From Planctomycetota bacterium (lineage in GTDB: Bacteria; Planctomycetota; PUPC01; JACPCR01), in assembly GCA_016179685.1 (NCBI GenBank), contig JACPCR010000064.1:181186-245185 (forward strand): 64,000 nt of DNA, given 5' to 3'. Both the position numbers and the translations under genes were made by a program. Positions 7,939 through 52,350 of the stretch are shown here, one piece after another. Each line of letters begins with the position of its first letter. The stretch's first letter is position 1. A model generated the notes under the pieces. That model was not told the DNA's origin. It saw nothing but the letters and a program-made list of their open reading frames with translations, and did not search any database.

Positions 7939-8466
7939 ATCTACCTCCTTTCCAAATAAGATGACCTGAACTTGAACTTCGGAACCCCGGTTCCAAACTC
8001 CAGTTTATTGGAAAGCTAAATCCGTTCCAAATCTCACAGTTTATTCGTTAACACTTTTAGCTAAATACTTTACATTAGAATCAGTAAATCATAATTAGAA
8101 ACCCAGCTAATTTGACAGGCCAGAATGACATAATATAGATGCCGTTATGACAGTAAGCCATATTGGCATATTCTCTGAGACGCTAATTTGCCCAGACTTC
8201 TCTTCCGCCGAGGTCTGGCATCGGTTCTTGTGAAGGAAACGATACTGCATGCGCCTTCACAAAGAGCTGTACAGACCTCTCGCACCATTAAATCGGCCGA
8301 GAATGAAGTAGGGGGCTGTTCTAGAGCCGAGCCGATTTTCTGGGTCATCACGATTGAGCGGTCTCTGTAACATAGACTATGCGGCTCGACGCGATTCAGC
8401 GCGCGTTTCCCTCTGACCCGTAAAGATTACGGCTGGCCGCCGGTATCCATACCGGGGTCGGGATCG

Positions 8467-40691: not shown

Positions 40692-41048
40692 GAAATGGCA
40701 AAGCCAAGCAAGTTGACAGAAAGGCGTGAATCCTTATAAGGGAGTCTTATAGCTCCCGCAAATAACTGCTCTTGTGAGTGTTGGCCATAGAGGCCATAAA
40801 TCTGATATATTCTTACCTTAGATCACTTACGTGCCGATACCAGCGAGACCCGCCTGCGCCGCGGGCGCGGCAGGCAGGCGTTGGCATTTCCAGTTAGGTT
40901 TTTGCGGCTGCTCTTAGGTTGTCACTTCCCCGCGCCCGCCTCCCATAGTCCCAACGGGATCCCTCCCGCCGGGATAAGTTCGGCGGGCACCCGGCGGAGA
41001 TCTTTCACGGTCATGGAAGCGCTTTGCTTCCGCATCGGGAGTTGCAAT

Positions 41049-41444
41049 ATGGCTGACTCTGAAATTCTTCCCGAGGGGAAAGTAGCTTCATCGGGAAAAC
41101 ATGGGGAAGTCAAGTTTGACTACATCAAGAGCAATCATTTTCGGGTAATCTATGCTGACGGTGTCTGGGGTGGTCTAACTCCACGTCTCAAGATGCAGAT
41201 CACATTTTGGAATGAACGCCACCCCATCCCCAGGCAAATCGTTCAGGAACTCACGGAGAAAGAACAGCCGGGTAGAGAATTAAGGCGAGAATCCAGAGAG
41301 GCAATCGTTCGAGAACTCGAGGCTTCGGTCATCATGGACCTCGAGGTGGCCCGCTCTTTCTGCAAGTGGCTCACCGAAAAGATTGAGAAAGCTGACCAAC
41401 TCTTGGCCCAACACAAAGAATCAGAAAAAAAGGAGAATCGTTGA
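41049..41444 (+). CDS. hypothetical protein (island cassette gene 1)
   Basis: within ORF 40881..41444; ATG 41049 preceded by GGGAG; lower-GC region; C-terminal predicted helical/charged tail; no family recognised. Confidence 0.5.
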   Translation: MADSEILPEGKVASSGKHGEVKFDYIKSNHFRVIYADGVWGGLTPRLKMQITFWNERHPIPRQIVQELTEKEQPGRELRRESREAIVRELEASVIMDLEVARSFCKWLTEKIEKADQLLAQHKESEKKENR

Positions 41445-42040
41445 TGCCACCGGCGAGTGCAATGTCCGATGTTATTCGCGCAGGTTCTCACTGCACCAGC
41501 ACTCTTGACTTGAGAGTGCCCCTTCCAGGAGCCAGTCAACTAGAATATGCAGCGTGCTTCCGAAATCCTATTGCCCTGGGTGAAGAGATTCCTTCAGAAT
41601 CCCCATCGGATTGGCCTGTGCCGTTGGACGAGGCGACCGTGGATGCCCTGGGTGAACATAATCTTTCGGAGTTCCCATCGGATTTGACATTTTCCGAACC
41701 TTGCAGCGAGCGAGATCTGGAAGATTATCTCAGAAGTCTCGAAGATGAGGGGTTTATTCCCTCCTCGATGAGGAGGAGCGCTCTGAAACTGTGGAAAACT
41801 TTAGAGCATCTTTCAGGTCATTGTTTGACGATTCCGGGTGCTGCTCCAGGCCCTGACGGGAAGTTATTCCTCGTTTGGGGTGAGGGCGAGCACCACTTCG
41901 AGGCCGAGTTGATCCCTGACAACCCGATAGAGTTCTTCTACATGAACCGCGGAACCAACGAGACTTGGAGTGGAGAGGCTGCTGATGAGAATGAGGTATC
42001 CCACGAAATCGTAGAGAAGCTGATGTCTCTTTGGGGGTAG
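41444..42040 (+). CDS. hypothetical protein (island cassette gene 2)
   Basis: ATG 41444 overlaps upstream stop (TGATG), AAGGAG 9 nt upstream; acidic protein; no family recognised. Confidence 0.5.
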   Translation: MPPASAMSDVIRAGSHCTSTLDLRVPLPGASQLEYAACFRNPIALGEEIPSESPSDWPVPLDEATVDALGEHNLSEFPSDLTFSEPCSERDLEDYLRSLEDEGFIPSSMRRSALKLWKTLEHLSGHCLTIPGAAPGPDGKLFLVWGEGEHHFEAELIPDNPIEFFYMNRGTNETWSGEAADENEVSHEIVEKLMSLWG

Positions 42041-42044
42041 CCTC

Positions 42045-42533
42045 ATGCCCGCAGTGAAGCGAGGGGTGGAGGGCGAGCCCTTACCCGGCGAGGAAGTCGT
42101 TTTCCGTCTCTGGCGGAAAGGAAAGGATGGCACGCGCGATGAATTGGTGGCCGCTTTTGAGTTGTCAAGCGATGAGAGGCGGTCACTACGCCCCACGTTG
42201 TCAGTTTTTGCTGAGGGGCTCACTTCCCATGAACAGGCATTCGAAATTACTGGGAAGAATTCGTTGAAGCGACTCGTGCTCCGAATGCAGGTCTGCGAAA
42301 TTCGGAAGATCGACTTGGTGCCTCCTGACCTGAATTTTCGTGGTCTCGATGTCATCTGGGTCCAAGCCAAACTGCAGGAGAATGGCCGAGAAGTCCCGGA
42401 CGAAAGACCGGGTGCTGAAGGTCATGCTGGAATTTTGGGACTCAGTAGCCCTCCAAACAAGAACTCTAGAAAAGTACTTCGAGTGAAACTTGCCGAATTA
42501 GCCTACCACAACGATCCCTTTGACAAACGTTGA
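42045..42533 (+). CDS. hypothetical protein (island cassette gene 3)
   Basis: 162-aa ORF 5 nt after previous stop; no family recognised. Confidence 0.5.
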   Translation: MPAVKRGVEGEPLPGEEVVFRLWRKGKDGTRDELVAAFELSSDERRSLRPTLSVFAEGLTSHEQAFEITGKNSLKRLVLRMQVCEIRKIDLVPPDLNFRGLDVIWVQAKLQENGREVPDERPGAEGHAGILGLSSPPNKNSRKVLRVKLAELAYHNDPFDKR

Positions 42534-42638: not shown

Positions 42639-44681
42639 TTACTCCAGAATAAGCGATTTCGTCAGAAGCTTCTCGATGTAGGTGGCCTTGTCTTCCTTCT
42701 GGAAAAGCACATGGTGCTTCTCGAAGGAGGCCTTGTTCGTCCCGCCCTCCCACCAAGTGACTTCCTCCCGGCGGGTACTTGAAAGGATGAAGGAATTCAG
42801 GATGACGGCTGGATCGCCTATCCGGCCCTCCAACTCTTTGATCGTGGCGTGGAAACGAATCTTCGGGTCGTTCTTGCCCTCAAGATTCCGGATGCCTTTG
42901 GGATCAATGAAGGTGATGTGCTGGCGGCTGCCCGATAGAAGCCAGAGGATGAAATCCGGGTAGAAGTTCCCCGCCTCGAAGAACCCGATACCCCGGCCCC
43001 GGCTCTGGTTGCGTAACAGGTAGAGTTCCTTCTCCTTGAAGAAGCCCTTGTTGCTGTCGAAGAAGGAGCGCAGGTCGAGGACGAATTCCCTTTCGCCTTC
43101 GTTCAGGGAAACCGGTCGGACCTCGATGTTGTCGCCCTTGAGGTAGAGGAGAGGGCGGTAGAGGTGCTGGCCGAAGCAGATGCCGCGAAACCGGTCGTGC
43201 TCGATGTCCCGCCATTCGCCCCGCTCCACGGCCTGCTTCAGTTCCTTGAGCTTGGCGATGATTTCCTTCTCGGATTCGTCAATCAGAATGCGGTATTCTT
43301 CGATGAAGTTGGGGTCGTCCGGGCGCAGTTCCCGATACTCTAGGTGTGGATTCTCATACTCCGCCTTCCGGTAATAGTAGTAACGCTCGCAGTATTTCTT
43401 CAGCAGGGCGATCGCCACCTCTTCCCATGCCCGAACCCTGCCGAAGCGGGTCAGGCTTAGCTCCGTTTCGGGAATGTAGAGCGTATACCAGTCCGACCGA
43501 GCCAGCAGACTTCGCACCTGCTCCCTGGACAGGCTGAGGTTATGCCAGGCCTTCTCGCTCTTGAAGTGCTCAAGCTCGAAGAACACGCGGTCGAAATCCA
43601 TGAAAGCCAACTGGACGTCCCGCAGCTTCCCTTCGTGCTGTTCGGCAGCGCCCTGACTCGTTCCCGCGCCGCGGCTGATGTGCGCTTGGACTCTCGGATA
43701 CCAGTCCAGGACGACCGGATACCTGACCAGATGTTCCGGCGGCACGTCGAGCGCCGGCTTGGGTCCGTCCCGCTTGAAATCAATGCCGTCTTTCAGCTTG
43801 AGAGTCTTGAGCTTCGTCTGGCCGAGGTTCTTCAGGACGGGCAGGACAAACTCCATCCGATCTTCGTTGGACGGCAGCCCCTCCTCTTCGAGGTATTCCT
43901 TGAACTGCCGCATGTAATCGGCCCGGATGCCGAAGATGTGAATGTCGATGATTTCCACGGATTTCCCGGCGAACAGCCCACGCCCGTCCTTCGAGAACAT
44001 TTCCGCCTGAAGCCCGGACAGCCCGAATTCCTCCAGGTGTTGCCTCGATAGCCCTTCGTTGGGAGTCAGGAGAATGATGCGATTGAGGTTGCGTTCCTTG
44101 CCGTGCTGGGCCAGGTAGTGTCGATACTGAAGCAGGTTGACGTGCATGAGCAGCGTCTTGCCCGACCCAGTGGCGCTCCAGAAGGCCAGCTTATTGAGCT
44201 GCTCCGGCTCGTAGGGCTGAATCTTGTCCCCCTCTGTTTTGTCCTCGTTGAAGCGCCTGACGAACGCGTTCAGGTCATTGAGCAGGGTATCCGGATTCTG
44301 GAAGTAACGGTCGAGGTAAATCTCCGTGAACAGCAGCGAGAGGTATTGGAAATACTTCGGGTAGAGGTTGTTGGCCTGGTGGCGCTTCTCGGTGATGACT
44401 CGCCAGTGGCGGACAATGTTTTGGTCGTATTGGAGAAGCAGGTCCGAGGGAAGCTGCTTGCGCTGGAATAGGCGGGCTTTGAGGACGTGGTGATAATGGC
44501 TGACGCCTTCGCCGTCGAACCCCTCCAGGTTTGGGCTTTTCAGCTCCTCGGCGAGCTGGCCAATGCGTTCGACCTCGAACAGGTCGAGCCTCCACTGGGC
44601 GAGGACGAGGCGCTCGTCGAATTTGAGGCGGGTCTCGCGGCGGGTTGGGCCGGCTCTCCTTCGGGCGGTTCCTGAAGGCAT
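42639..44681 (-). CDS. restriction-endonuclease-like P-loop NTPase (Res-like: helicase-type ATPase with C-terminal PD-(D/E)xK-like motif)
   Basis: 680-aa ORF; Walker A FWSATGSGKT; degenerate motif II-like IIDIH (no DExH); C-terminal YPDFILW...TFIDPKG fits PD...(D/E)xK nuclease pattern; last gene of the mod-containing minus-strand array. Confidence 0.55.
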   Translation of the reverse strand: MPSGTARRRAGPTRRETRLKFDERLVLAQWRLDLFEVERIGQLAEELKSPNLEGFDGEGVSHYHHVLKARLFQRKQLPSDLLLQYDQNIVRHWRVITEKRHQANNLYPKYFQYLSLLFTEIYLDRYFQNPDTLLNDLNAFVRRFNEDKTEGDKIQPYEPEQLNKLAFWSATGSGKTLLMHVNLLQYRHYLAQHGKERNLNRIILLTPNEGLSRQHLEEFGLSGLQAEMFSKDGRGLFAGKSVEIIDIHIFGIRADYMRQFKEYLEEEGLPSNEDRMEFVLPVLKNLGQTKLKTLKLKDGIDFKRDGPKPALDVPPEHLVRYPVVLDWYPRVQAHISRGAGTSQGAAEQHEGKLRDVQLAFMDFDRVFFELEHFKSEKAWHNLSLSREQVRSLLARSDWYTLYIPETELSLTRFGRVRAWEEVAIALLKKYCERYYYYRKAEYENPHLEYRELRPDDPNFIEEYRILIDESEKEIIAKLKELKQAVERGEWRDIEHDRFRGICFGQHLYRPLLYLKGDNIEVRPVSLNEGEREFVLDLRSFFDSNKGFFKEKELYLLRNQSRGRGIGFFEAGNFYPDFILWLLSGSRQHITFIDPKGIRNLEGKNDPKIRFHATIKELEGRIGDPAVILNSFILSSTRREEVTWWEGGTNKASFEKHHVLFQKEDKATYIEKLLTKSLILE

Positions 44682-44687
44682 CGGTGG

Positions 44688-45013
44688 CTAAGGTGATGGA
44701 AGAGGAATTTCAACATACTGGCCGGGTTTCACGGTCTTCAGTGTTTGCTCGATGACGGACAGAAGGCCGGCCACCATCGGAACCTGGTTGCTGGGAAGAA
44801 CCACCACTGCGAGCTTTATTGCGGCAAGGTTCTGCTGATAGCGTAAGTTCTTGTCCGTGGTCATGAAGACGTCAAACTCGTTCTCCGCTCGCCTGAGCAA
44901 TTCGCCGTTCTTCAGCCCGCTCCACAAACCATTTCCTGAACGGTTCGGATTGCCAGATCGGGAAGTCGCGTCTTCACCAGCCGCGGCACGCACTCATCAA
45001 GTAAGATTCTCAA
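44688..45013 (-). pseudogene. DUF5615-like (PIN-like) toxin-type gene, apparently frameshifted
   Basis: N-terminal ILLDECVPRLVKTRL (DUF5615-like) is read in one frame from TTG ~45013, the remainder (...WSGLKNGELLRRAENEFDVFMTTD...) in ORF 44688..44993; frames differ by 1 nt near 44930. Confidence 0.4.
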
Positions 45014-45255
45014 TTCGACCTACCCAGGCGCAGAAGGGTGGCTTTGGAGAATTCAAGGACTTGTAACGCCTGCTCTCGAGTCACGGAAGGGAAGTTCTCC
45101 AGAAATTCTTCCAGGGTCAGGCCCGCCTCGAGGTTGTCAATGAGGGCTTGCACCGGGACCCGCGTCCCCCGGAAAACGGGCGCTCCGCTGACGATTTCGG
45201 GATCGATGGTTATCGGCAACTGCTCAAGCTCTGCCTCTTCAATGACCAGTGACAT
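45010..45255 (-). CDS. DUF433 family protein (antitoxin-like partner of DUF5615)
   Basis: ORF 45010..45297; start at ATG 45255 with GAAGGAGG upstream; GAPVFRGTRVPVQALIDNLEAG matches DUF433 pattern from memory. Confidence 0.6.
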   Translation of the reverse strand: MSLVIEEAELEQLPITIDPEIVSGAPVFRGTRVPVQALIDNLEAGLTLEEFLENFPSVTREQALQVLEFSKATLLRLGRSN

Positions 45256-45318
45256 CGTGGGCCTCCTTCGTGAGGGTCGGGAATCGACGAGAGCCATTTT
45301 ACTCCAGATTGCCTTCCC

Positions 45319-48300
45319 CTACACGTCCTTCACGTCGAACATCAGCCGCTGGAATTCCTCCTCAATTAGCCGGACTTTCCAGGTCATGTCCTCACGGCGC
45401 AGGTTTTCCAGGTGGTTGTCGCCGTTCACGTAAATCAGGTCGAACTCCTGGTCCCGGGTGTTGTACTTCTGCTTCCGGAAAAACTCGTCCAGGTCCTCGT
45501 TCGACTTCCCTGCCTTCCCGTCGGGAGCAGACAGGTCCTTCAAGCTCCGCCAGATGACCAAAACCTTCTCGCCCTGGGGATTCGTGCCTTGGACGACCCG
45601 GAAGCCCCGGATAACGTCCACGTGCATTACCCGGAGGCCCAGCAGGTAGTTGAAGGTCTCGACCAGGTCCACGGTTGTGGGCCGAGTCTCGCCCGCGCTG
45701 CCGGTGGCGATGTTGAGCTTGTAGAAGAAGGGGTCTTCGAACGCGGCGATGTTCAGCAGCGACGCGCTGCCGCGGCTCTCCACGTCCAGCATATAGGAGA
45801 GGAGGTAGTCCTCCCGGACTCCGTCGTTGGCTTCCAGGAGGGCGGCCTGCAAGTCGGTGCGTTTCAGTTCCAGGTTGTTGAGGGTGTCTTCGTAGGATTT
45901 CAGCCGGAGGTATTTGAAGAGGTGGCTGGAGCCTTCGCGGCTAACCGGCTTGCCGTCTTTCCAGTCCTTGGAGTAGATGACCTTCTGGATGCGTGGCTTG
46001 AGGACGGTATTGAAGTATTCGGCCATCTCGACGAGGATATACTTGCGGCCCCCCCCGGGTCTCGCGCGTCATCGCGATTCAGGTTGATGACGGCATGGCC
46101 CGTGGTGCCGGAACCGGCGAAGAAGTCCAAGACCAAGGAGTCCTCCGCGTCCGAGCAAATAAGCACGCAATCCTTGACAGCGTGTAGGGATTTGGGGAAG
46201 TCGAATGGACTCAGCGGACCAAACATTTCCTTCAATTCTTTCGTTCCATTGTCCCGAGCAGAATAGGCCGGGCTATCCCACCACGTGCGAGGCAGCGACC
46301 CTTCTTCGCGTAAGTACTTCCGTTTGTAAACCTCGTACTTGCCATCTCGCTTCATCACCTTCATTAGACAGACCTCTGCGATCGCCCTTTGAACGCCGAA
46401 GTTCCAGACCTTTTCAACGCCTGAATCGTCAATGGGCCAAATAGCGACTTCGCCGGGACGGGTTTTCTCGTTGATCCTCCAACTTTTACTGGTTTCTAGC
46501 CATTCCATCCCGGGGATCCGCTGTGCGTGATGCGCCTCGTCGAAGTAGATCGGAAAGAATTGCTTCGGTCGGTCTGGTCTGTCCGATCCCCTGCTGCTCT
46601 TCCTGAAGTTCTCCCATTCGAACGGTTTTCCCTCCTCATCTACTTGGTCGTACCTTTGTCGCTGAGAGTCACTGTGAGGCAACCGACCAACTTCGGAAGA
46701 CTGTGCAAGTTTCGAGTAGAACAGCGCGTACTCGTGGTTAATGGCGAACCCCTTCGTCGTAGCGCGACCGGACGGGTTGTTGCGAATCACAACGGTCGCC
46801 ATGTAGTTCTCATCAAAGAAAACACGATCTAACACAGACCTCAGGCGGTGGGATTCGTAGTCATCTATCGTCACGCACAGCAGCCCGTCGCAAGACAGGA
46901 CTTCACGTGAGAGTGCAACTCTATCTTCGACGAGGGAAATCCAAGTCGAGTGCTTGTACTCGTTCTTATACAGAATCTCGCTCTCTATCGCGTTATAAGG
47001 TGGATCGATGTAGATACACTTAATCTGTTCCCTATAGCGTGTTTCTATTAGGTTGAGCGCCTGGAAGTTCTCCCCGTGCACCAGCAGCCCGTCGGTATTC
47101 TCGTCCAGGTCCTGGATGCTGGCCAGCAGGCGGTCTTTGAACTCCGGGTCGAAGAAACGGGTGTCCAACACCAGGAAGGGATTAGCCTTCAGGAACTCCA
47201 CAGTGAGCGGCTTGGAATATTTCGGGGTGTGCAGGTCGCCCTGGATTTCGTCAATGGCGAAGAGGCGGACCCATTCCTCCCGCTGGGCGTCGCTGGCCGC
47301 GATTTCTACGTATAGCTCCCCAGGGACGCGGTCGAGCGTGATGCAGTAGTTCGTCTCGACCACGAACTTCTTCTTGAGCCAGAGCTTCTTCTGGAAGTTC
47401 TCCAGTTGCTCCAGGAAGGCGATGATCTTGTGGGCGATGCGGCGGAGCGCACGGATTTTGCCGAGATACTGCTCCACGCGGGGCGCGGACTCGCTTTCGA
47501 TGTCGTCCAGGTGCATGACCTCGTTCTTGATGTAGAAGTCCAGCTCCCGGCGGAGGAAGCCGCCCAGGTCCTTGTGGATGAAGTAGTCGAAGGTGTTGCG
47601 GGCGGTGTAGTCCGTGAGGTGCTTTTCGAGAAGGGTGCGGTCGGGATTCTTTTCGGTGGGGGCGGGGGTGGAGAGTTCCTCAATCCATTCTTTCGCATTG
47701 GCGGCTTGTAGTGCCCTCTTTAGAGGGTTGCCTTCGTCTGCACTACCCGCATCGAAGAGACCCGCTGTCCCAGCGGGATCCCTATGGGAAAGCGGCACTA
47801 CGAACCCGGAAGCGATGGCGGCGTTGTGATCCGACTGTTTCCGTTTCTGCGGGTCCGGCTGGTAGAGGAAGTGGATGAATAGCTCGTCAGGCTTTATGTC
47901 CACGGGATTCGATTCGCAGAGCATGAACCGGCGCTCCTTGTCGGGCCCGGCTTTCTGGTTGTCCTTCTCGGTGTCGGCTTCGACGAGCTTGAAGTGGACG
48001 CGGCGGCCGGAGGGGAGCTTGAAGGTGTAGTCCCGGAAGTATTCGGACGACTTGACGTAATACTGGTCGTGATTGGCCCAGTGGAGCTTGACCTCCTCGC
48101 CTTCGTAGGGGATGGCATAGACGCCTTCCTTGTAGCGGCGGAGGGAAAGGAAGTCGCCCTCGTGGTAGTAGCGGCGGAAGAAGTTGGTGAGGTCGGAGAA
48201 GATTTCCTGTTCGAGGGCGGCGGGGTCGCCGGCGGACTGGTATTTGGCCTTGAGTTCCTTGACCTTCGGGCTGGTTTCCGGGTCGATGCCAAGTCCTTTG

Positions 48301-48527
48301 GCCTGTTCGATGGCTTCCTTGAGTTGGGACTCGATGACGCGCTGGTCGCCGGACTGGTGTTCGCTTAGGGCATTGCGGACTTGCGGGAGGAGGTCTTTGT
48401 CGAGGAAGCGGGTAATCTCGTCCCGCTTCTGGTTCATGATGCGGTAGATGCCGAAATCGAGGTCGGCCTGGTCGAGCTGGAAGAGCTCGGCGAGCAACCG
48501 CCTCAACTTCTCGAGGTTTTGAGACAT
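45319..48527 (-). CDS. beta-class (N6_N4_Mtase-type) DNA methyltransferase, type III Mod-like, with ~500-aa N-terminal extension; reading frame interrupted at a C8/G8 tract
   Basis: ORF 45900..48527 contains motif IV IYIDPPYN and, ~300 aa later, motif I LDFFAGSGTTGHA (order IV then I = beta class); C-terminus continues in ORF 45319..46026 if the G8 run at 46049-46056 is read as G9 (...NLNRDDARDPGGGRKYILVEMAEYF...). Confidence 0.7.
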
Positions 48528-48546
48528 TGCGACAAACCCTCTGCGT

Positions 48547-49650
48547 CTATTCGTTGTGCTCGAGGAGCACGAATTTCCGTTTCAGGCCGTTCAAACAGTC
48601 GTGGCGGAGATGCCCCTCGTGCTGAAGCCGCCCGACGACGATACCGGGAGCGATACCGAGTTGACGGGCGAAGGCCGAAATGTCCTTCTCGCTTCGGTAC
48701 TTGCCCGTGGTTACCAGCTCGTCGTACTTGGCTTGCGGGATCAGCATCTTCACCGCGAAACGGTCCGCCTCCGTTTCCTCCATGCTCTTCGGCTTCTCCT
48801 TGTCGTCGACGAAGGCGGCCCTCTTGCCGTGCAAGAGTATGTGGCCTGCCTCGTGGAAGAAGCTGAACCAGAAATGGTCGTCGCTCTTATGCCGAAGGCT
48901 GAGCATCAGGAGGGCCTTGTCCTTGCTCAGCCAGCGTGTCGCGCCGCTGAGGTGCGTGCCCGGCAACTCCGCTACGAAGACGACGGCTACGCCGGCGTCG
49001 CAACAGAGGGCCTTCATCTTCGGCTCGAAGATGGCAGGCTCCGCGTTGGTGACCGACTGAATCTCCCGTAGCGCCGCGAGGAACCGTTCTTTGTCGTAGC
49101 GCGAGCAGACAACTTCCCGCGCCCACAGCTCCCCGATCCGTAGCCACGCCGTCAGGGACTCGGGAGCGCTCTTGAATGCAGGGGAATGCCTATAGGCTAC
49201 GTTGAGACCGGCGTAGGCTTCTTGCCAGGCCTCCACGCTTCCCACACCGAAGAAAGCAAGAAGGGAGGCAACGAGCTCGGCTGGGTCATCGGTTTTGGGA
49301 ATCAACCGGCGTTCAGCAAGCTCCTTGATGGGGAACTTCCTTGCCCACGCTTCCTGGCCCTCAAGCGCGGACCGGTCGGCAGCCTTGGCCGCGTGGAGCC
49401 GGAACAGACCATCCAGGTTGTTCCAGACCGCAGCGGACACGCCAAGGACCCTCTCCAGTTGGATGGCAGTCTCCGACGTGACGTTAGCCTTTCCAGTGAT
49501 GATTTGGCTAACCGTCTTCTCGCTCAGACCGCACCGTTGGGCCAGGTCCGTCCCCTTCATGCCCTTCGCTTCCAGGGTCTCCTTCAAGATCTCTCCCGGG
49601 TGAACGGCGTAGTCGGGATGGAATTCGTTCCTATCCGTGCTAAGTGTCAT
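48547..49650 (-). CDS. HigA-like HTH (XRE family) antitoxin domain fused to ImmA/IrrE-family metallopeptidase domain
   Basis: 367-aa ORF; N-terminal HPGEILKE...LSEKTVSQIITGKANVT HTH; C-terminal FFHEAGHILLH HExxH zinc-peptidase motif (COG2856-like). Confidence 0.7.
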   Translation of the reverse strand: MTLSTDRNEFHPDYAVHPGEILKETLEAKGMKGTDLAQRCGLSEKTVSQIITGKANVTSETAIQLERVLGVSAAVWNNLDGLFRLHAAKAADRSALEGQEAWARKFPIKELAERRLIPKTDDPAELVASLLAFFGVGSVEAWQEAYAGLNVAYRHSPAFKSAPESLTAWLRIGELWAREVVCSRYDKERFLAALREIQSVTNAEPAIFEPKMKALCCDAGVAVVFVAELPGTHLSGATRWLSKDKALLMLSLRHKSDDHFWFSFFHEAGHILLHGKRAAFVDDKEKPKSMEETEADRFAVKMLIPQAKYDELVTTGKYRSEKDISAFARQLGIAPGIVVGRLQHEGHLRHDCLNGLKRKFVLLEHNE

Positions 49651-49985
49651 CGGTGGTAGTCCTCCAGGCTCAGGATGCGGATAGTGGTGATCCGGGTAAG
49701 GTCGATGCCCCCGTCAGGTTTGAGCGGCAGGTCGGCCTCAGCGGGCCCAAAAACGAGACGGAAGGGATGTTTGAGGTCAACGGCGAACTGCCCCTTCCTG
49801 TTCCCCGTCAACTCGTGTCGGCGCGTGGGCGGCACGTGGGGGACCTCGGCGAGTGTCGGGGCAGCTCGAAGGAAGGCCATGCGCTTCATGATAACCTTCC
49901 CGTTCTCTGCGCCGTACTCGCGGCATAGTGCCTTCTCGGAATTGAAGGTCTTAGCCATCTTGTCGTTCCCGAACAGGATGTTCAT
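49647..49985 (-). CDS. HigB-like (RelE/ParE superfamily) toxin
   Basis: 112-aa ORF overlapping downstream gene by 4 nt; resembles plasmid-maintenance-system-killer/HigB toxins (KALCREYG...LTGNRKGQFAVDL...FRLVF). Confidence 0.6.
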   Translation of the reverse strand: MNILFGNDKMAKTFNSEKALCREYGAENGKVIMKRMAFLRAAPTLAEVPHVPPTRRHELTGNRKGQFAVDLKHPFRLVFGPAEADLPLKPDGGIDLTRITTIRILSLEDYHR

Positions 49986-50050
49986 CCCCGCCTCATTATA
50001 ATCAGTTTACCTAAAAGGTAAAGCTTTTTCTCGCGTTCGCACCAGGAGTC

Positions 50051-51543
50051 TCAGGTGACCGACCATCGGATGGTGAAGAGATGCTCCACAGTTGTTCGCT
50101 GGGTCATTCGCTTTTCGAGCGCGGCGATGAGCGTGTCCCGCTTCGCCAGAATCTCATCTTCGAGGTCGAAAATCTTCTGCCGCTGTTTCCGCTGCTTCTG
50201 CTCCAGGTCCCGGATTTGGACCTACAACTGATGCTGCTCTTCAGTGGTGGCAGACATCCGGGCCTGCCGGTTCAGCGCCCGGATCTGCGCTTTGGTGTCC
50301 GCCAACTCCTTTTCCGCGGCCAGAACTTTATCCTCCGCCCATTTCTCCAGCCGTTCCCGCTCCTCCTGGAGGAAGCGGTTGTTCATCTCAAGGGAGCGGC
50401 TGATGGTGGCTTTGACGTGCCGCTGGGCTTCCTTGCCGAGCCGGTCTTTTATTTCCTGCGGCTGGCTTTCCAAAGGGGAAGCCTTGCCATTGCAAAGGAA
50501 AAGCTTCTCGCAGGTTTCCTGGTTCACGGGCCGGGCGGAATCGTCCAGCGCGGAGAAGAGGAGGTATTCCTCCCGGTCGAAGGATTCGATGACGAGCCGC
50601 TGAAGCACGAGCCAGCCGGAGTTGCCTTTGAGGGCCTCCACTACGGAAAGCCGGGTGGGATGGCTGGTGATATCGAAGGCGACTTCCGCGAGCGGGGTCG
50701 GGCAGGAGCGGCCTTCGCTGAGCGCGTGCTGGCCGAGCGGATGGGAGAGGCGATAGAGGAACTCGCCGGAAACGTTCTGCTGGGACTTGGAGATGAGGTG
50801 GTATCGGCCGGGCCGGACGCCATCGCAAGGGGCGGCGTGAAGGTCGAAGTGAAGCGCCTGGTCGTCAAAGCTGGCCGCGTTCCGCAGGATAAACTTGGTC
50901 AGCGCCCAGAAGAGCTTGCCGAAGCGGTCGAGCTGCTCGCGGGCGCTGTCGAGCTGCACTCTCAGGCGGGCGTGGACCTCTTCATCGAAGTGTTCGAGGA
51001 GGATGCGGCGGGTCTCGTCGATCCGGGACTTGATGGAGGATTCGAGTTCGGCGCGGAGCTGCTGGAACGCGGCTTCGATCTCGCCGGGCGTCCGGCACTG
51101 CTGATAGATGGCGAGGATGCGCTTTTCAAAGTCCACGCCGGATTCGATGGTGCCGAGGACTTCGTCCGACGCGCCGAAGACGCCCGTGAAGAGGTTGAAC
51201 TTATCCTGGAGTTCGAGCGACCACTGCTTGCGGATGGATGCCGGGCAGATGACAAGGAGTCGGCGGCGCTGCTCTGTCCAATGCTGTGGCACAGGACAAG
51301 CCCCGCCTCGATGGTCTTGCCCAAGCCGACCTCATCCGCCAGGATGACGCCTTTGGAGATGGGTGAGCGGAGGGCAAAGAGCGCGGCGTCAATCTGGTGG
51401 GGGTTGAGGTCCACGCAGGCGTCGAACAAGGACCGGGAGATGCGGTCCACTCCGGTTGTCGGCCCCTGGCGGGTCAGTTCGTAGGCATAGTAGCGGGCGT
51501 GGTAGGGAGTGCTCACGACCGGGCCAATCTCCGGGGCTATCAA
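50051..51543 (-). pseudogene. SNF2-family helicase remnant (frameshift, in-frame TAG, helicase core apparently missing)
   Basis: N-terminus in ORF 50962..51543 has SNF2 motif I (ILADEVGLGKTIEAG); continuation LVICPASIRKQW is in a different frame (ORF 50222..51292); reading continues in frame through TAG at 50222-50224 for 56 more codons; no DExH or motif VI seen. Confidence 0.5.
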
Positions 51544-51684: not shown

Positions 51685-52350
51685 GTGGTCCCCATTTGGA
51701 ATCGCTGGGTGCTTCAAGTGGAGATTCATCCGGCGGCTGGCCGCACCTGTCCCGCCGCGCTTCGCTCCACTCTGCGTTCCGCCCCGAATGTCATCGCGCT
51801 CGGAGCGATACGGGACCCGGAATCTCTGGCCCTTTGCCTGGAAGCTTCTCTCATGGGCCATCTGGTCCTGGCGGTTCTGCAAGTCGAAGACGCAGCGGCG
51901 GCGCTCCAGCGCATGGTTGAAATGTCGGGCGACCCACTCGTGGTGGCTGATGCAACGAAGCTGGTGGTCTCGCAGAGATTGGTGCGGAAGCTATGCACCC
52001 GATATTCCCGGGAAGAGCCGCCCGGGGATGAGCTTCTCGAGTGGGCCAGGAGCGCGGCGGAGAGCGGAGGCCTGGATTGGGCAACAGCCTCGAAACGCTT
52101 CCGCTCTGCCACGGGGTGTCCTGAGTGCATGAATACGGGATACCGTGGCCGGAACGTCATCGCCGAGGCGCTGGAGGTCACGCCCGGTATCCGGGCCGCG
52201 CTCCGTGAGAGAGCGGCGACCGGTCGTCTTCGGGCCGTGGCCATCGAACAGGGTATGATCTCCTTCAGCGCCCATGGGATTCTGAAAGCGTCGCCAGGCT
52301 TCACCACCTTGGGCGAGATCGCCCGTCACTCGGGCAGCTCATTCGTTTGA
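51685..52350 (+). pseudogene. C-terminal fragment of GspE/PilB-type secretion ATPase
   Basis: 221-aa ORF lacks Walker A/B but retains C-terminal features (PNVIALGAIRD, GHLVLAVLQVED degenerate His box, GCPECMNTGYRGR zinc-knuckle region). Confidence 0.45.

What the first reader, a model, noticed from the sequence alone, without database searches (positions are those of the whole stretch)
42639..44681. Res-like protein is atypical: Walker A present, canonical DExH absent
A type III Res partner would normally show SF2 motifs including DEAH. This 680-aa protein has Walker A (ATGSGKT) and a possible degenerate motif II (IIDIH), with a PD...DPK nuclease-like motif near the C-terminus. It is either a divergent or inactivated Res, or a different ATPase-nuclease.
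Basis: partly seen in the sequence, partly recalled or inferred. Interest (0 to 1): 0.5.

Follow-up and report, generated by a model that had tools for sequence, protein, structure and literature searches.

The report
Restriction enzyme gene with deleted motor
The odd "Res-like" protein is an ordinary restriction-enzyme subunit whose gene has lost about 1.1 kb encoding most of its ATP-driven motor, and the other two genes of its three-gene defence locus are also broken, so this is a decaying defence system, not a new kind of enzyme.

Summary
A 680-aa ORF lies at 42639-44681 on the minus strand. It has Walker A (ATGSGKT, aa 170-176), IIDIH (aa 244-248) and PD...DPK (aa 575-595), and it has no DExH.

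The cause is an in-frame internal deletion, not divergence. All 119 listed relatives are 1033-1097 aa. Each aligns end to end with the window protein except for about 380 residues that fall exactly between H248 and I249. In the relatives that block carries a canonical DEGH (motif II), SAT (III), motif V and QLFGRGVR (VI). IIDIH is therefore a conserved segment upstream of motif II, not a degenerate motif II.

The rest of the locus is damaged too. The upstream Mod gene has a -1 frameshift in a G8 run. A third gene, an SNF2 helicase that precedes Mod-Res in about 55 of 83 related loci, has a +2 frameshift, a 468-aa deletion of its ATPase core and a TAG stop.

Outside the lesions, all three genes keep family-conserved residues as well as intact relatives do, so the decay is recent. 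Two Logan assemblies from different sequencing runs carry the same sequence.

Verdict: a recently inactivated type III-like SNF2-Mod-Res system. It is ordinary and of low interest.

The parts
42639..44681 (-). Res remnant: 680-aa ORF with an in-frame internal deletion of about 380 aa (about 1.14 kb). It keeps the N-terminal domain, helicase motifs I and Ia, the C-terminal linker region and the PD-(D/E)xK nuclease domain.
   Evidence: All 119 listed relatives are 1033-1097 aa. The alignment gap lies exactly between aa 248 and 249.
44154..44174 (-). Walker A / SF2 motif I, ATGSGKT (aa 170-176). Motif Ia, LLTPNEGL, follows at aa 204-211.
   Evidence: These residues are invariant in 37 aligned sequences.
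43938..43952 (-). IIDIH (aa 244-248), the last conserved segment before the deletion. The junction lies between 43938 (H248) and 43937 (I249), DNA gacattcac|atcttcggc.
   Evidence: Relatives read [35 protein letters not shown]...ETLN-IFGIRADY.
42897..42959 (-). PD-(D/E)xK-type nuclease motif: P575 D576 ... D593 P594 K595.
   Evidence: These residues are invariant across the aligned relatives.
45319..48527 (-). Mod gene (beta-class N6/N4 methyltransferase, about 1069 aa when repaired), split by a -1 frameshift into ORFs 45900-48527 (875 aa, the last ~52 aa out of frame) and 45319-46026 (235 aa).
   Evidence: PADLOC MTase_III PDLC03646 positions 278-814 match ORF1 and 825-1053 match ORF2. Adding one G gives a 1069-aa protein that aligns 1-1069 to 1-1007 of the Mod in L004 at 55% identity.
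46049..46056 (-). G8 homopolymer (C8 on the + strand) at the Mod frameshift, codon ~824. G9 would restore the frame.
   Evidence: It is the only G/C run of 8 or more in the 64-kb window. It is also G8 in two Logan assemblies.
50051..51516 (-). SNF2-family helicase pseudogene, the first gene of the ancestral SNF2-Mod-Res operon. It has a +2 (CA) frameshift at codon 77 (~51287), a 468-aa deletion of the ATPase core (junction ~51205) and a TAG nonsense codon at 50222-50224.
   Evidence: It is 64-71% identical to the 956-aa SNF2 of L004 over aa 1-104 and 571-956. The family consensus carries EEKFNL at both deletion end points.
48547..49985 (-). Two-gene cassette inserted between SNF2 and Mod: a weak HigB-like ORF (49647-49985, 112 aa) and an HTH_3 + Peptidase_M78 protein (48547-49650, 367 aa).
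   Evidence: The same pair lies inside the operon in L026 and L029 and is absent from most loci.
44688..45297 (-). Two small ORFs inserted between Mod and Res: a DUF433 protein (45010-45297) and an ORF with no family match (44688-44993).
   Evidence: In 48 of 75 related loci Mod and Res are less than 400 bp apart.

Best explanation
The ORF is the Res (restriction/translocase) subunit of a type III-like restriction-modification system whose usual operon is SNF2 helicase - Mod - Res.

In this genome the Res gene has an in-frame deletion of about 1.14 kb. The deletion removes the second half of RecA-like domain 1 and all of domain 2, that is SF2 motifs II (DEGH), III, V and VI. It joins the segment ending in IIDIH directly to IFGIRADY.

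Shown:
- The deletion and its end points in the protein alignment.
- The -1 frameshift of Mod in a G8 run.
- Three lesions in the SNF2 gene.
- The same sequence in separate assemblies of two sequencing runs.

Inferred:
- With Walker A but no Walker B/DExH, no arginine-finger motif VI and no second RecA lobe, the 680-aa product cannot hydrolyse ATP or act as the ATP-dependent DNA switch/translocase that type III enzymes need for cleavage. Restriction is therefore off.
- The locus is a recently inactivated, horizontally acquired defence island undergoing neutral decay.
- The SNF2 deletion arose by recombination or slippage between two short direct repeats (EEKFNL-coding). The Res deletion arose by illegitimate recombination with at most a few bases of microhomology.
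- The Mod frameshift arose by slippage in the G tract and is in principle reversible.
For: 1. Length. Relatives P0002-P0120 are all 1033-1097 aa. The only 680-aa entry is the identical P0001.

2. Alignment. There is a single clean gap of 383 columns between H248 and I249. Relatives carry [19 protein letters not shown], LIGSKKFTEGWxSWRVSTMGLM and IQLFGRGVRLKG in it. In A2 the residues D272 E273 G274 H275, S303 A304 T305 and Q589-R596 of P0003 are invariant.

3. PADLOC REase_III (1154-position profile) matches in two separate stretches. The C-terminal one is aa 247-674 to profile 673-1125. Pfam ResIII matches only its first half.

4. None of the 83 related loci examined (80 from the scan of one genome per species, 3 from the earlier look-ups) shows a comparable gap. 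Res coverage is 96-99% wherever the contig allows.

5. Outside the gap the protein keeps 212 of 215 columns that are at least 95% conserved in 119 relatives. Counted over all 232 such columns, intact relatives keep a median of 230 and a minimum of 220.

6. Mod: the frameshift is at G8, and the repaired Mod aligns full length and keeps 174 of 178 conserved columns.

7. SNF2: frameshift, 468-aa deletion and TAG stop; 129 of 133 conserved columns kept.

8. Logan contigs from SRR12113432 and SRR12113390 are 100% identical to the window over 8.1 kb and 5.4 kb. Both include the Res junction and G8.

9. The AlphaFold model of the 680-aa protein has pLDDT below 50 over residues 232-289, which span the junction, and pTM 0.40.

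10. GC is 51-60% over 41-51 kb against 62-68% in the flanks.
Against: - No intact near-identical allele is available. The closest relatives are 61-64% identical, and a 22-mer from the left flank found nothing in the metagenome contigs. The end points and the deletion mechanism are therefore inferred from protein alignment only.
- The deletion is in frame and the remnant keeps its conserved residues. That is also what selection on a shortened protein would produce.
- The two Logan runs may sample the same population as the MAG, so they exclude an assembler artefact but are not independent biological replicates.
- The 'type III' label rests on the PADLOC profile name, the architecture and the adjacent Mod. 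Direct comparison with EcoP1I Res aligned only motif I-Ia (hhalign probability 4%). PDB sequence and fold searches found nothing.
- Loss of function is inferred, not measured.
Confidence: 0.9

Rival explanations
1. The shortened Res is kept for a function. It would act as a motor-less nuclease or as a structural partner of Mod, while Mod switches ON/OFF through the G8 tract. The locus would then work as a phase-variable methylation switch (phasevarion-like) rather than as a dead system.
For: - The deletion is in frame and the remnant keeps 212 of 215 conserved positions, including the invariant PD...DPK.
- The Mod frameshift sits exactly in the only G/C run of 8 or more in 64 kb, and one added G restores a full-length Mod that keeps its conserved positions.
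- Simple-sequence repeats at frame changes occur in Mod genes of this family: C16, C13 and (ATCC)7 at one site in L012, L013 and L011.
- From my own knowledge, phase-variable type III mod genes in Haemophilus, Neisseria and Helicobacter are often paired with inactive res genes.
Against: - One in three random deletions is in frame.
- Retention of conserved residues is equally explained by a recent event. The plainly dead SNF2 gene retains them too, at 129 of 133.
- The short form is a singleton among 7199 relatives.
- The junction region is predicted to be disordered.
- G8 is short for a contingency tract, and both assemblies show G8 only.
- The tract lies late in the gene (codon 824 of 1069), after both catalytic motifs.
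Confidence: 0.07
2. The deletion is an assembly or binning artefact. The real genome would carry an intact Res of about 1060 aa.
For: - The window comes from a metagenome-assembled genome (P0001 is named 'MAG... Planctomycetes bacterium').
- The SNF2 deletion lies between short similar sequences, which can confuse assemblers.
Against: - Two Logan contigs, made by a different assembler from two different runs, carry the identical junction, G8 and Mod ORF.
- The peptides flanking the Res deletion (IIDIHKL and TLNIFGI) do not resemble each other in the relatives, and no repeat of 16 nt or more maps to the junction in the window. A k-mer collapse is therefore implausible.
- Five separate lesions in three adjacent genes are not what a single misassembly produces.
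Confidence: 0.02
3. The ORF is a naturally short, divergent ATPase-nuclease in which IIDIH serves as a degenerate Walker B.
For: Walker A and an acidic residue after a hydrophobic stretch (IID) are present.
Against: - Intact relatives have the same IIDIH and also a canonical DEGH about 25 residues downstream, so IIDIH is not motif II.
- No other member has the short form.
- Everything between motif Ia and the post-helicase linker is missing, including the whole second RecA lobe.
Confidence: 0.01

Closest known systems
PADLOC REase_III model PDLC03654 with MTase_III PDLC03646: the Res and Mod family of about 1060 aa each, found here as SNF2-Mod-Res operons in many phyla
   Same: - The window Res matches at E=1.7e-114 and Mod at E=5e-180. 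Full-length relative P0003 matches at E=2.5e-248.
- It is 61-64% identical to the full-length members.
- Gene order and orientation are the same as in about 55 of 83 related loci.
- Walker A, motif Ia and the PD...DPK residues are the same invariant ones.
   Different: - About 380 aa (motifs II-VI) are deleted from Res.
- Mod is frameshifted.
- SNF2 is reduced to a pseudogene.
- Two small two-gene cassettes are inserted between the genes.
Classical type III Res subunits (EcoP1I of phage P1; EcoP15I)
   Same: - Overall logic: an SF2 ATPase (motifs I-VI with DExH) followed by a C-terminal PD-(D/E)xK nuclease.
- It is encoded directly downstream of, and in the same direction as, a beta-class adenine methyltransferase.
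   Different: - Sequence similarity to EcoP1I Res is limited to motif I-Ia (hhalign probability 4%), with no PDB hit.
- The family's Res has an N-terminal domain of about 150 aa.
- Its Mod is about 1050 aa against about 645 aa for the classical Mods (figure from memory).
- Most loci add an SNF2 helicase.
- The window copy lacks the motor altogether.
Phase-variable type III mod loci with inactive res ('phasevarions' of Haemophilus, Neisseria, Helicobacter; from my own knowledge, not tested here)
   Same: - A homopolymeric tract in mod sits exactly at the frameshift.
- The res partner is inactivated.
- Related Mod genes of the family carry long simple repeats at frame changes.
   Different: - The tract is only G8, late in the gene, and invariant in the assemblies available.
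- The organism is an environmental Planctomycete.
- No evidence of switching or regulation.
DISARM DrmD (SNF2 helicase)
   Same: The family's SNF2 partner matches PADLOC DrmD model PDLC02619 at E=5.5e-198. The window remnant matches at E=2.5e-26.
   Different: No DrmA, DrmB or DrmC genes are seen in the loci whose genes were listed. The partners are Mod and Res instead.

Membership tests
Type III R-M Res subunit | Complete SF2 helicase/ATPase core: motifs I, Ia, II (DExH), III, V, VI in two RecA-like lobes | tested here: not met
   The window protein has only motifs I and Ia. Motifs II-VI fall in the deleted block of about 380 aa. Full-length relatives do meet this feature (DEGH, SAT, QLFGRGVR).
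Type III R-M Res subunit | C-terminal PD-(D/E)xK endonuclease motif | tested here: met
   P575 D576 ... D593 P594 K595, invariant in the alignments. This is sequence level only. The fold was not confirmed: the models were too weak and Foldseek found no significant hit.
Type III R-M Res subunit | Encoded next to, and in the same direction as, a Mod methyltransferase of the beta class (DPPY before FxGxG) | tested here: met
   Mod lies at 45319-48527 on the same strand. Pfam N6_N4_Mtase E=8e-27 and PADLOC MTase_III E=5e-180. The gene is frameshifted and separated from Res by a 637-bp insert.
Type III R-M Res subunit | Significant profile match to recognised type III Res sequences | tested here: inconclusive
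   PADLOC REase_III E=1.7e-114 and Pfam ResIII just above its cut-off (23.5 against 22.5 bits). NCBIfam gives nothing. hhalign against EcoP1I Res covers only motif I-Ia at probability 4%. No PDB hit.
Type III R-M Res subunit | ATP-dependent cleavage that requires Mod and two inversely oriented unmethylated sites | not testable with these tools
   Biochemical property. Predicted to be lost here because the ATPase core is missing.
SNF2-Mod-Res three-gene operon (the family's usual architecture) | SNF2 helicase of about 956 aa directly upstream of Mod, in the same direction | tested here: met
   A remnant at 50051-51516 is 64-71% identical to the L004 SNF2 over aa 1-104 and 571-956. It is a pseudogene (frameshift, deletion, stop).
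Phase-variable type III mod (phasevarion) | A simple-sequence repeat inside mod whose length varies between cells or strains and switches the frame | tested here: inconclusive
   G8 lies at the frameshift and G9 restores the frame. No length variation is seen in two other assemblies. Read-level data are not available.

The most novel reading that the evidence does not exclude
The locus is not simply dead. Mod would be a reversible, G-tract-controlled (phase-variable) orphan methyltransferase in an environmental Planctomycete, and the motor-less Res remnant would be kept as a partner. This would extend phasevarion-type epigenetic switching, with loss of the restriction motor, to free-living bacteria. 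Simple-repeat tracts in the same Mod family in soil Pyrinomonadaceae (L011-L013) point the same way.
Probability: 0.07. Interest if true: 0.5.

Novelty: new member of a known kind. Interest (0 to 1): 0.2.

Why it matters
The result is mainly a caution about annotation. The protein is deposited as a 'DEAD/DEAH box helicase family protein', and defence-system finders would score this locus as a type III R-M system. In fact none of its three genes is intact.

Showing that 'Walker A without DExH' comes from a clean internal deletion removes the suggestion of a new ATPase-nuclease class.

The locus also gives a small, well-resolved snapshot of how an acquired defence island is dismantled. It carries five independent lesions: two large deletions of motor domains, two frameshifts and one nonsense codon. 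Missense decay at conserved positions (3 to 4 departures per gene) is within the range of intact relatives.

The wider family may deserve separate study. It is a widespread SNF2-Mod-Res triad with cargo insertion points between its genes and simple-repeat tracts in some Mod genes. That is outside the finding as given.

Tried and rejected
The AlphaFold2 model of the 680-aa protein (pLDDT 72, pTM 0.40) and of full-length relative P0003 (pLDDT 63, helicase core below 50) were too weak. The alignments had only 36-37 fairly similar sequences. Foldseek of the 680-aa model against the PDB gave no hit with E<=0.001 (best 0.16). I did not run the poor full-length model.
- PDB sequence search with the protein and with a 9-sequence profile: no hit at E<=1.
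- hhalign of the family profile against EcoP1I Res taken from phage P1: only motif I-Ia aligned, probability 4%. Homology to classical Res beyond the generic SF2 motifs is not demonstrated here.
- NCBIfam: no model for Res.
- Search for an intact near-identical allele with a 22-nt left-flank pattern in the metagenome contigs: no match.
- Repeat search across 40.5-52.5 kb for repeats that could explain the deletions or mark a mobile element: only short, chance-like matches.
- Literature searches for the SNF2 + Mod + Res triad or similar decayed loci returned nothing specific.
- Considered and rejected: IIDIH as Walker B, a natural short family, and an assembly artefact.
Full report
**The observation**

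The window has a 680-aa ORF at 42639-44681, on the minus strand. Its translation contains:
- ATGSGKT at aa 170-176.
- IIDIH at aa 244-248.
- PD at aa 575-576 followed by DPK at aa 593-595.

There is no DExH/DEAH anywhere.

The protein is a real family member, not a chance ORF:
- PADLOC's REase_III model PDLC03654 matches at E=1.7e-114.
- A protein search returned 7199 relatives.
- Pfam ResIII matches only aa 155-225, against the first half of the model (positions 20-79 of 164), at 23.5 bits versus a cut-off of 22.5.
- The PADLOC match comes in two separate stretches of a 1154-position profile.

Both of the last two results suggested early on that a piece is missing.

**Why DExH is absent**

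Every one of the 119 listed non-identical relatives is 1033-1097 aa long. The only 680-aa entry is the identical sequence deposited from a Planctomycetes MAG.

In the alignment with eight relatives, the window protein aligns from end to end except for one clean gap of 383 columns. The gap lies between ...VEIIDIH(248) and I(249)FGIRADYMRQ....

In the relatives this block reads [30 protein letters not shown] ... [11 protein letters not shown] ... LIGSKKFTEGWxSWRVSTMGLM ... IQLFGRGVRLKG ... ETLN. That is a canonical DEGH motif II, motif III (SAT), motif V and motif VI. All are invariant in a 36-sequence alignment: P0003 residues D272-H275, S303-T305 and Q589-R596.

The deleted block corresponds to residues 248-626 of P0003, which is 379 aa or about 1.14 kb. 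IIDIH is a conserved segment that intact relatives also have, about 25 residues before their DEGH. It is not a degenerate motif II.

**Is the short form unique and real?**

A scan of one genome per species found at least 563 relatives. In the best 80 of those loci, plus 3 loci from the earlier look-ups, Res is covered 96-99% wherever the contig allows. No locus has a comparable gap.

The same 680-aa ORF occurs on Logan contigs assembled from two different runs, SRR12113432 and SRR12113390. These contigs are 100% identical to the window over 8.1 kb and 5.4 kb. No repeat long enough to collapse an assembly graph lies at the junction. An assembly artefact is therefore very unlikely, although the runs may sample the same population as the MAG.

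**The rest of the locus**

*Mod.* The upstream ORFs 45900-48527 (875 aa) and 45319-46026 (235 aa) match consecutive parts of one PADLOC MTase_III profile, positions 278-814 and 825-1053 of 1057. The break lies in a G8 run (C8 at 46049-46056 on the + strand). This is the only G/C homopolymer of 8 or more in the 64-kb window. Adding one G gives a 1069-aa Mod that aligns 1-1069 to 1-1007 of the Mod next to an intact Res in locus L004, at 55% identity.

*SNF2.* In L004 and L005, and in about 55 of the 83 related loci, a 956-aa SNF2 helicase precedes Mod in the same direction. PADLOC calls this helicase DrmD-like, at E=5.5e-198. The window has its remnant at 50051-51516, with three lesions:
- aa 1-76, including the Walker A DEVGLGKT, are in one frame. 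A 2-nt CA insertion then shifts the frame.
- aa 77-104 are fused to aa 573 onwards, deleting 468 aa that hold the whole ATPase core.
- A TAG codon at 50222-50224 interrupts the C-terminal domain.

The family consensus carries the same peptide at both end points of this deletion (LELEEKFNL and LELLEEKFNL). The SNF2 deletion therefore looks like recombination or slippage between short direct repeats (the mechanism is inferred).

*Inserts.* Two small cassettes sit between the genes:
- A weak HigB-like ORF plus an HTH_3/Peptidase_M78 protein, between SNF2 and Mod.
- A DUF433 protein plus an ORF with no family match, between Mod and Res.

**Age of the damage**

I took columns that are at least 95% conserved in the intact relatives and at which the window protein has a residue. 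The window genes keep:

| Gene | Conserved columns kept | Intact relatives |
|---|---|---|
| Res | 212 of 215 | median 230, minimum 220, counted over all 232 conserved columns including 17 inside the deletion |
| Mod (repaired) | 174 of 178 | median 176, minimum 170 |
| SNF2 | 129 of 133 | median 132, minimum 116 |

All three lie inside the range of intact relatives, so the lesions are recent relative to the divergence of the family. By my rough reckoning, five disruptive lesions with only a handful of extra missense changes fits neutral decay at about 1% divergence. This is inference, not a test, and it needs no selection for retention.

The island has 51-60% GC against 62-68% in the flanks, which fits horizontal acquisition.

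**How it most likely works, or no longer works**

From established knowledge of type III enzymes (my own knowledge of EcoP1I and EcoP15I):
- Mod recognises an asymmetric site and methylates it.
- Res uses its SF2 ATPase as an ATP-triggered switch to move along DNA.
- Res cuts with its C-terminal PD-(D/E)xK domain when two complexes meet.

The family's full-length members have all the sequence parts for this. Most loci also carry an SNF2 helicase whose role is unknown.

The window copy keeps Walker A and motif Ia but lacks Walker B/DExH, motifs III-VI and the second RecA lobe. It should therefore bind, at most, but not hydrolyse ATP. The AlphaFold model has pLDDT below 50 across residues 232-289 at the junction, and pTM 0.40. 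The nuclease motif is intact but has no motor to license it, and the second motor protein of the locus is also destroyed.

I conclude that restriction is off and the locus is a decaying remnant (confidence about 0.9). The deletion, the frameshifts and the stop codon are shown. The loss of activity and the deletion mechanisms are inferred.

**Rivals**

- *Retained function with a phase-variable Mod.* The in-frame deletion and the preserved residues would also fit a retained function. The G8 tract could make Mod phase-variable, as in phasevarions, where res is often inactive (own knowledge). In support, Mod genes of this family in three Pyrinomonadaceae genomes carry C16, C13 and (ATCC)7 at one site, exactly where the frame changes. 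Against: the short Res is a singleton, the clearly dead SNF2 gene preserves its residues equally well, G8 is short and lies late in the gene, and both other assemblies show G8. I give this about 7%.
- *Assembly artefact*: about 2%.
- *A natural short ATPase-nuclease with IIDIH as Walker B*: about 1%. The alignment contradicts it.

**Comparison with what is known**

The closest family is the one behind PADLOC REase_III PDLC03654 and MTase_III PDLC03646. The window genes are damaged members of it.

Relative to classical type III systems, the architecture is the same: an SF2 ATPase plus a PD-(D/E)xK nuclease, downstream of a beta-class Mod. Direct similarity to EcoP1I Res, however, was limited to motif I-Ia (hhalign probability 4%), and no solved structure matched by sequence or fold. 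'Type III-like' is therefore the defensible label. The window protein itself fails the defining feature of a complete helicase core.

**Verdict**

The finding is explained and ordinary: an internally deleted Res in a recently inactivated three-gene R-M-type locus. Interest is low (0.2). It counts as a new, defective member of a known kind.

Noticed in passing
L006-L085, L004, L005 (related loci); window 44682-45318 and 48528-50050: The two gene junctions of the SNF2-Mod-Res operon are recurrent insertion points for small cargo genes. Gaps of 400 bp or more occur between Mod and Res in 27 of 75 loci and between SNF2 and Mod in 15 of 60. The cargo includes Fic/DOC (8 loci), AAA_21 ATPase + DUF4276 pairs (5), 23S_rRNA_IVP four-helix proteins (4), DUF1016/YhcG nucleases (3), GmrSD_N (2), PIN (2), HTH-M78 (2) and DUF3800. 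The window's two cassettes fit this pattern.
   Followed up: partly
L012:8134 (C16), L013:8213 (C13), L011:~8085-8111 ((ATCC)7): Three Pyrinomonadaceae genomes carry different simple-sequence repeats at the same site of the Mod gene (codon ~433), exactly where the reading frame changes. This is the signature of phase-variable type III mod genes, here in soil Acidobacteria. Across 648 kb of related SNF2, Mod and Res sequence, the only G/C runs of 8 or more were these two. These loci hold only a C-terminal SNF2 remnant.
   Followed up: partly
window 48547-49985 (-); L026:3374-4809; L029:8578-9982: The HTH_3 + Peptidase_M78 protein (367 aa) matches PADLOC PD-Lambda-2_B (E=8e-38), RmrA and capP models, and NCBIfam HigA. 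The overlapping upstream 112-aa ORF is only faintly HigB-like (E=0.037). The same pair occurs inside the operon in two other loci, once in each junction. Whether it is a toxin-antitoxin pair or a CapH/CapP-type regulator of the defence genes is open.
   Followed up: partly
window 44688-45297 (-): A DUF433 protein (E=8e-21) is followed by a 79-101-aa ORF with no match in Pfam, NCBIfam or PADLOC. Its stop codon lies 6 nt before the Res start. From memory its C-terminal part resembles the PIN-like partners of DUF433, but the N-terminus looks atypical. It may be a truncated toxin. This was not tested.
   Followed up: no
L003:5189-8226; L031:10001-13356; L033, L039, L072, L079 Mod; L074, L079 SNF2: Frame changes in one gene of the triad are common in other genomes too. 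Examples are Mod in three frames next to an intact Res in L003, and Res in three frames in L031. Either the family decays often or MAG sequence errors contribute.
   Followed up: no
window 40881-42533 (+): Three co-directional ORFs (187, 199 and 162 aa) downstream of Res, in the lowest-GC part of the island (51-54%), have no match in Pfam, NCBIfam or PADLOC. ORF 41441-42040 contains a 41-nt direct repeat, 83% identical, spaced 72 nt apart at 41572-41612 and 41644-41684.
   Followed up: no
window ~51853-52350 (L001:2332-2829): The gene called next to the SNF2 remnant is a 165-aa product with a T2SSE (secretion/pilus ATPase) hit. That is short for the family as I remember it. It may be a fragment left at the island boundary.
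   Followed up: no
L031, L050, L060, L061, L063, L064, L070: Seven related loci with enough upstream sequence have Mod-Res but no SNF2 gene. The SNF2 helicase is therefore a frequent but dispensable third component. Literature searches found no description of this triad.
   Followed up: partly
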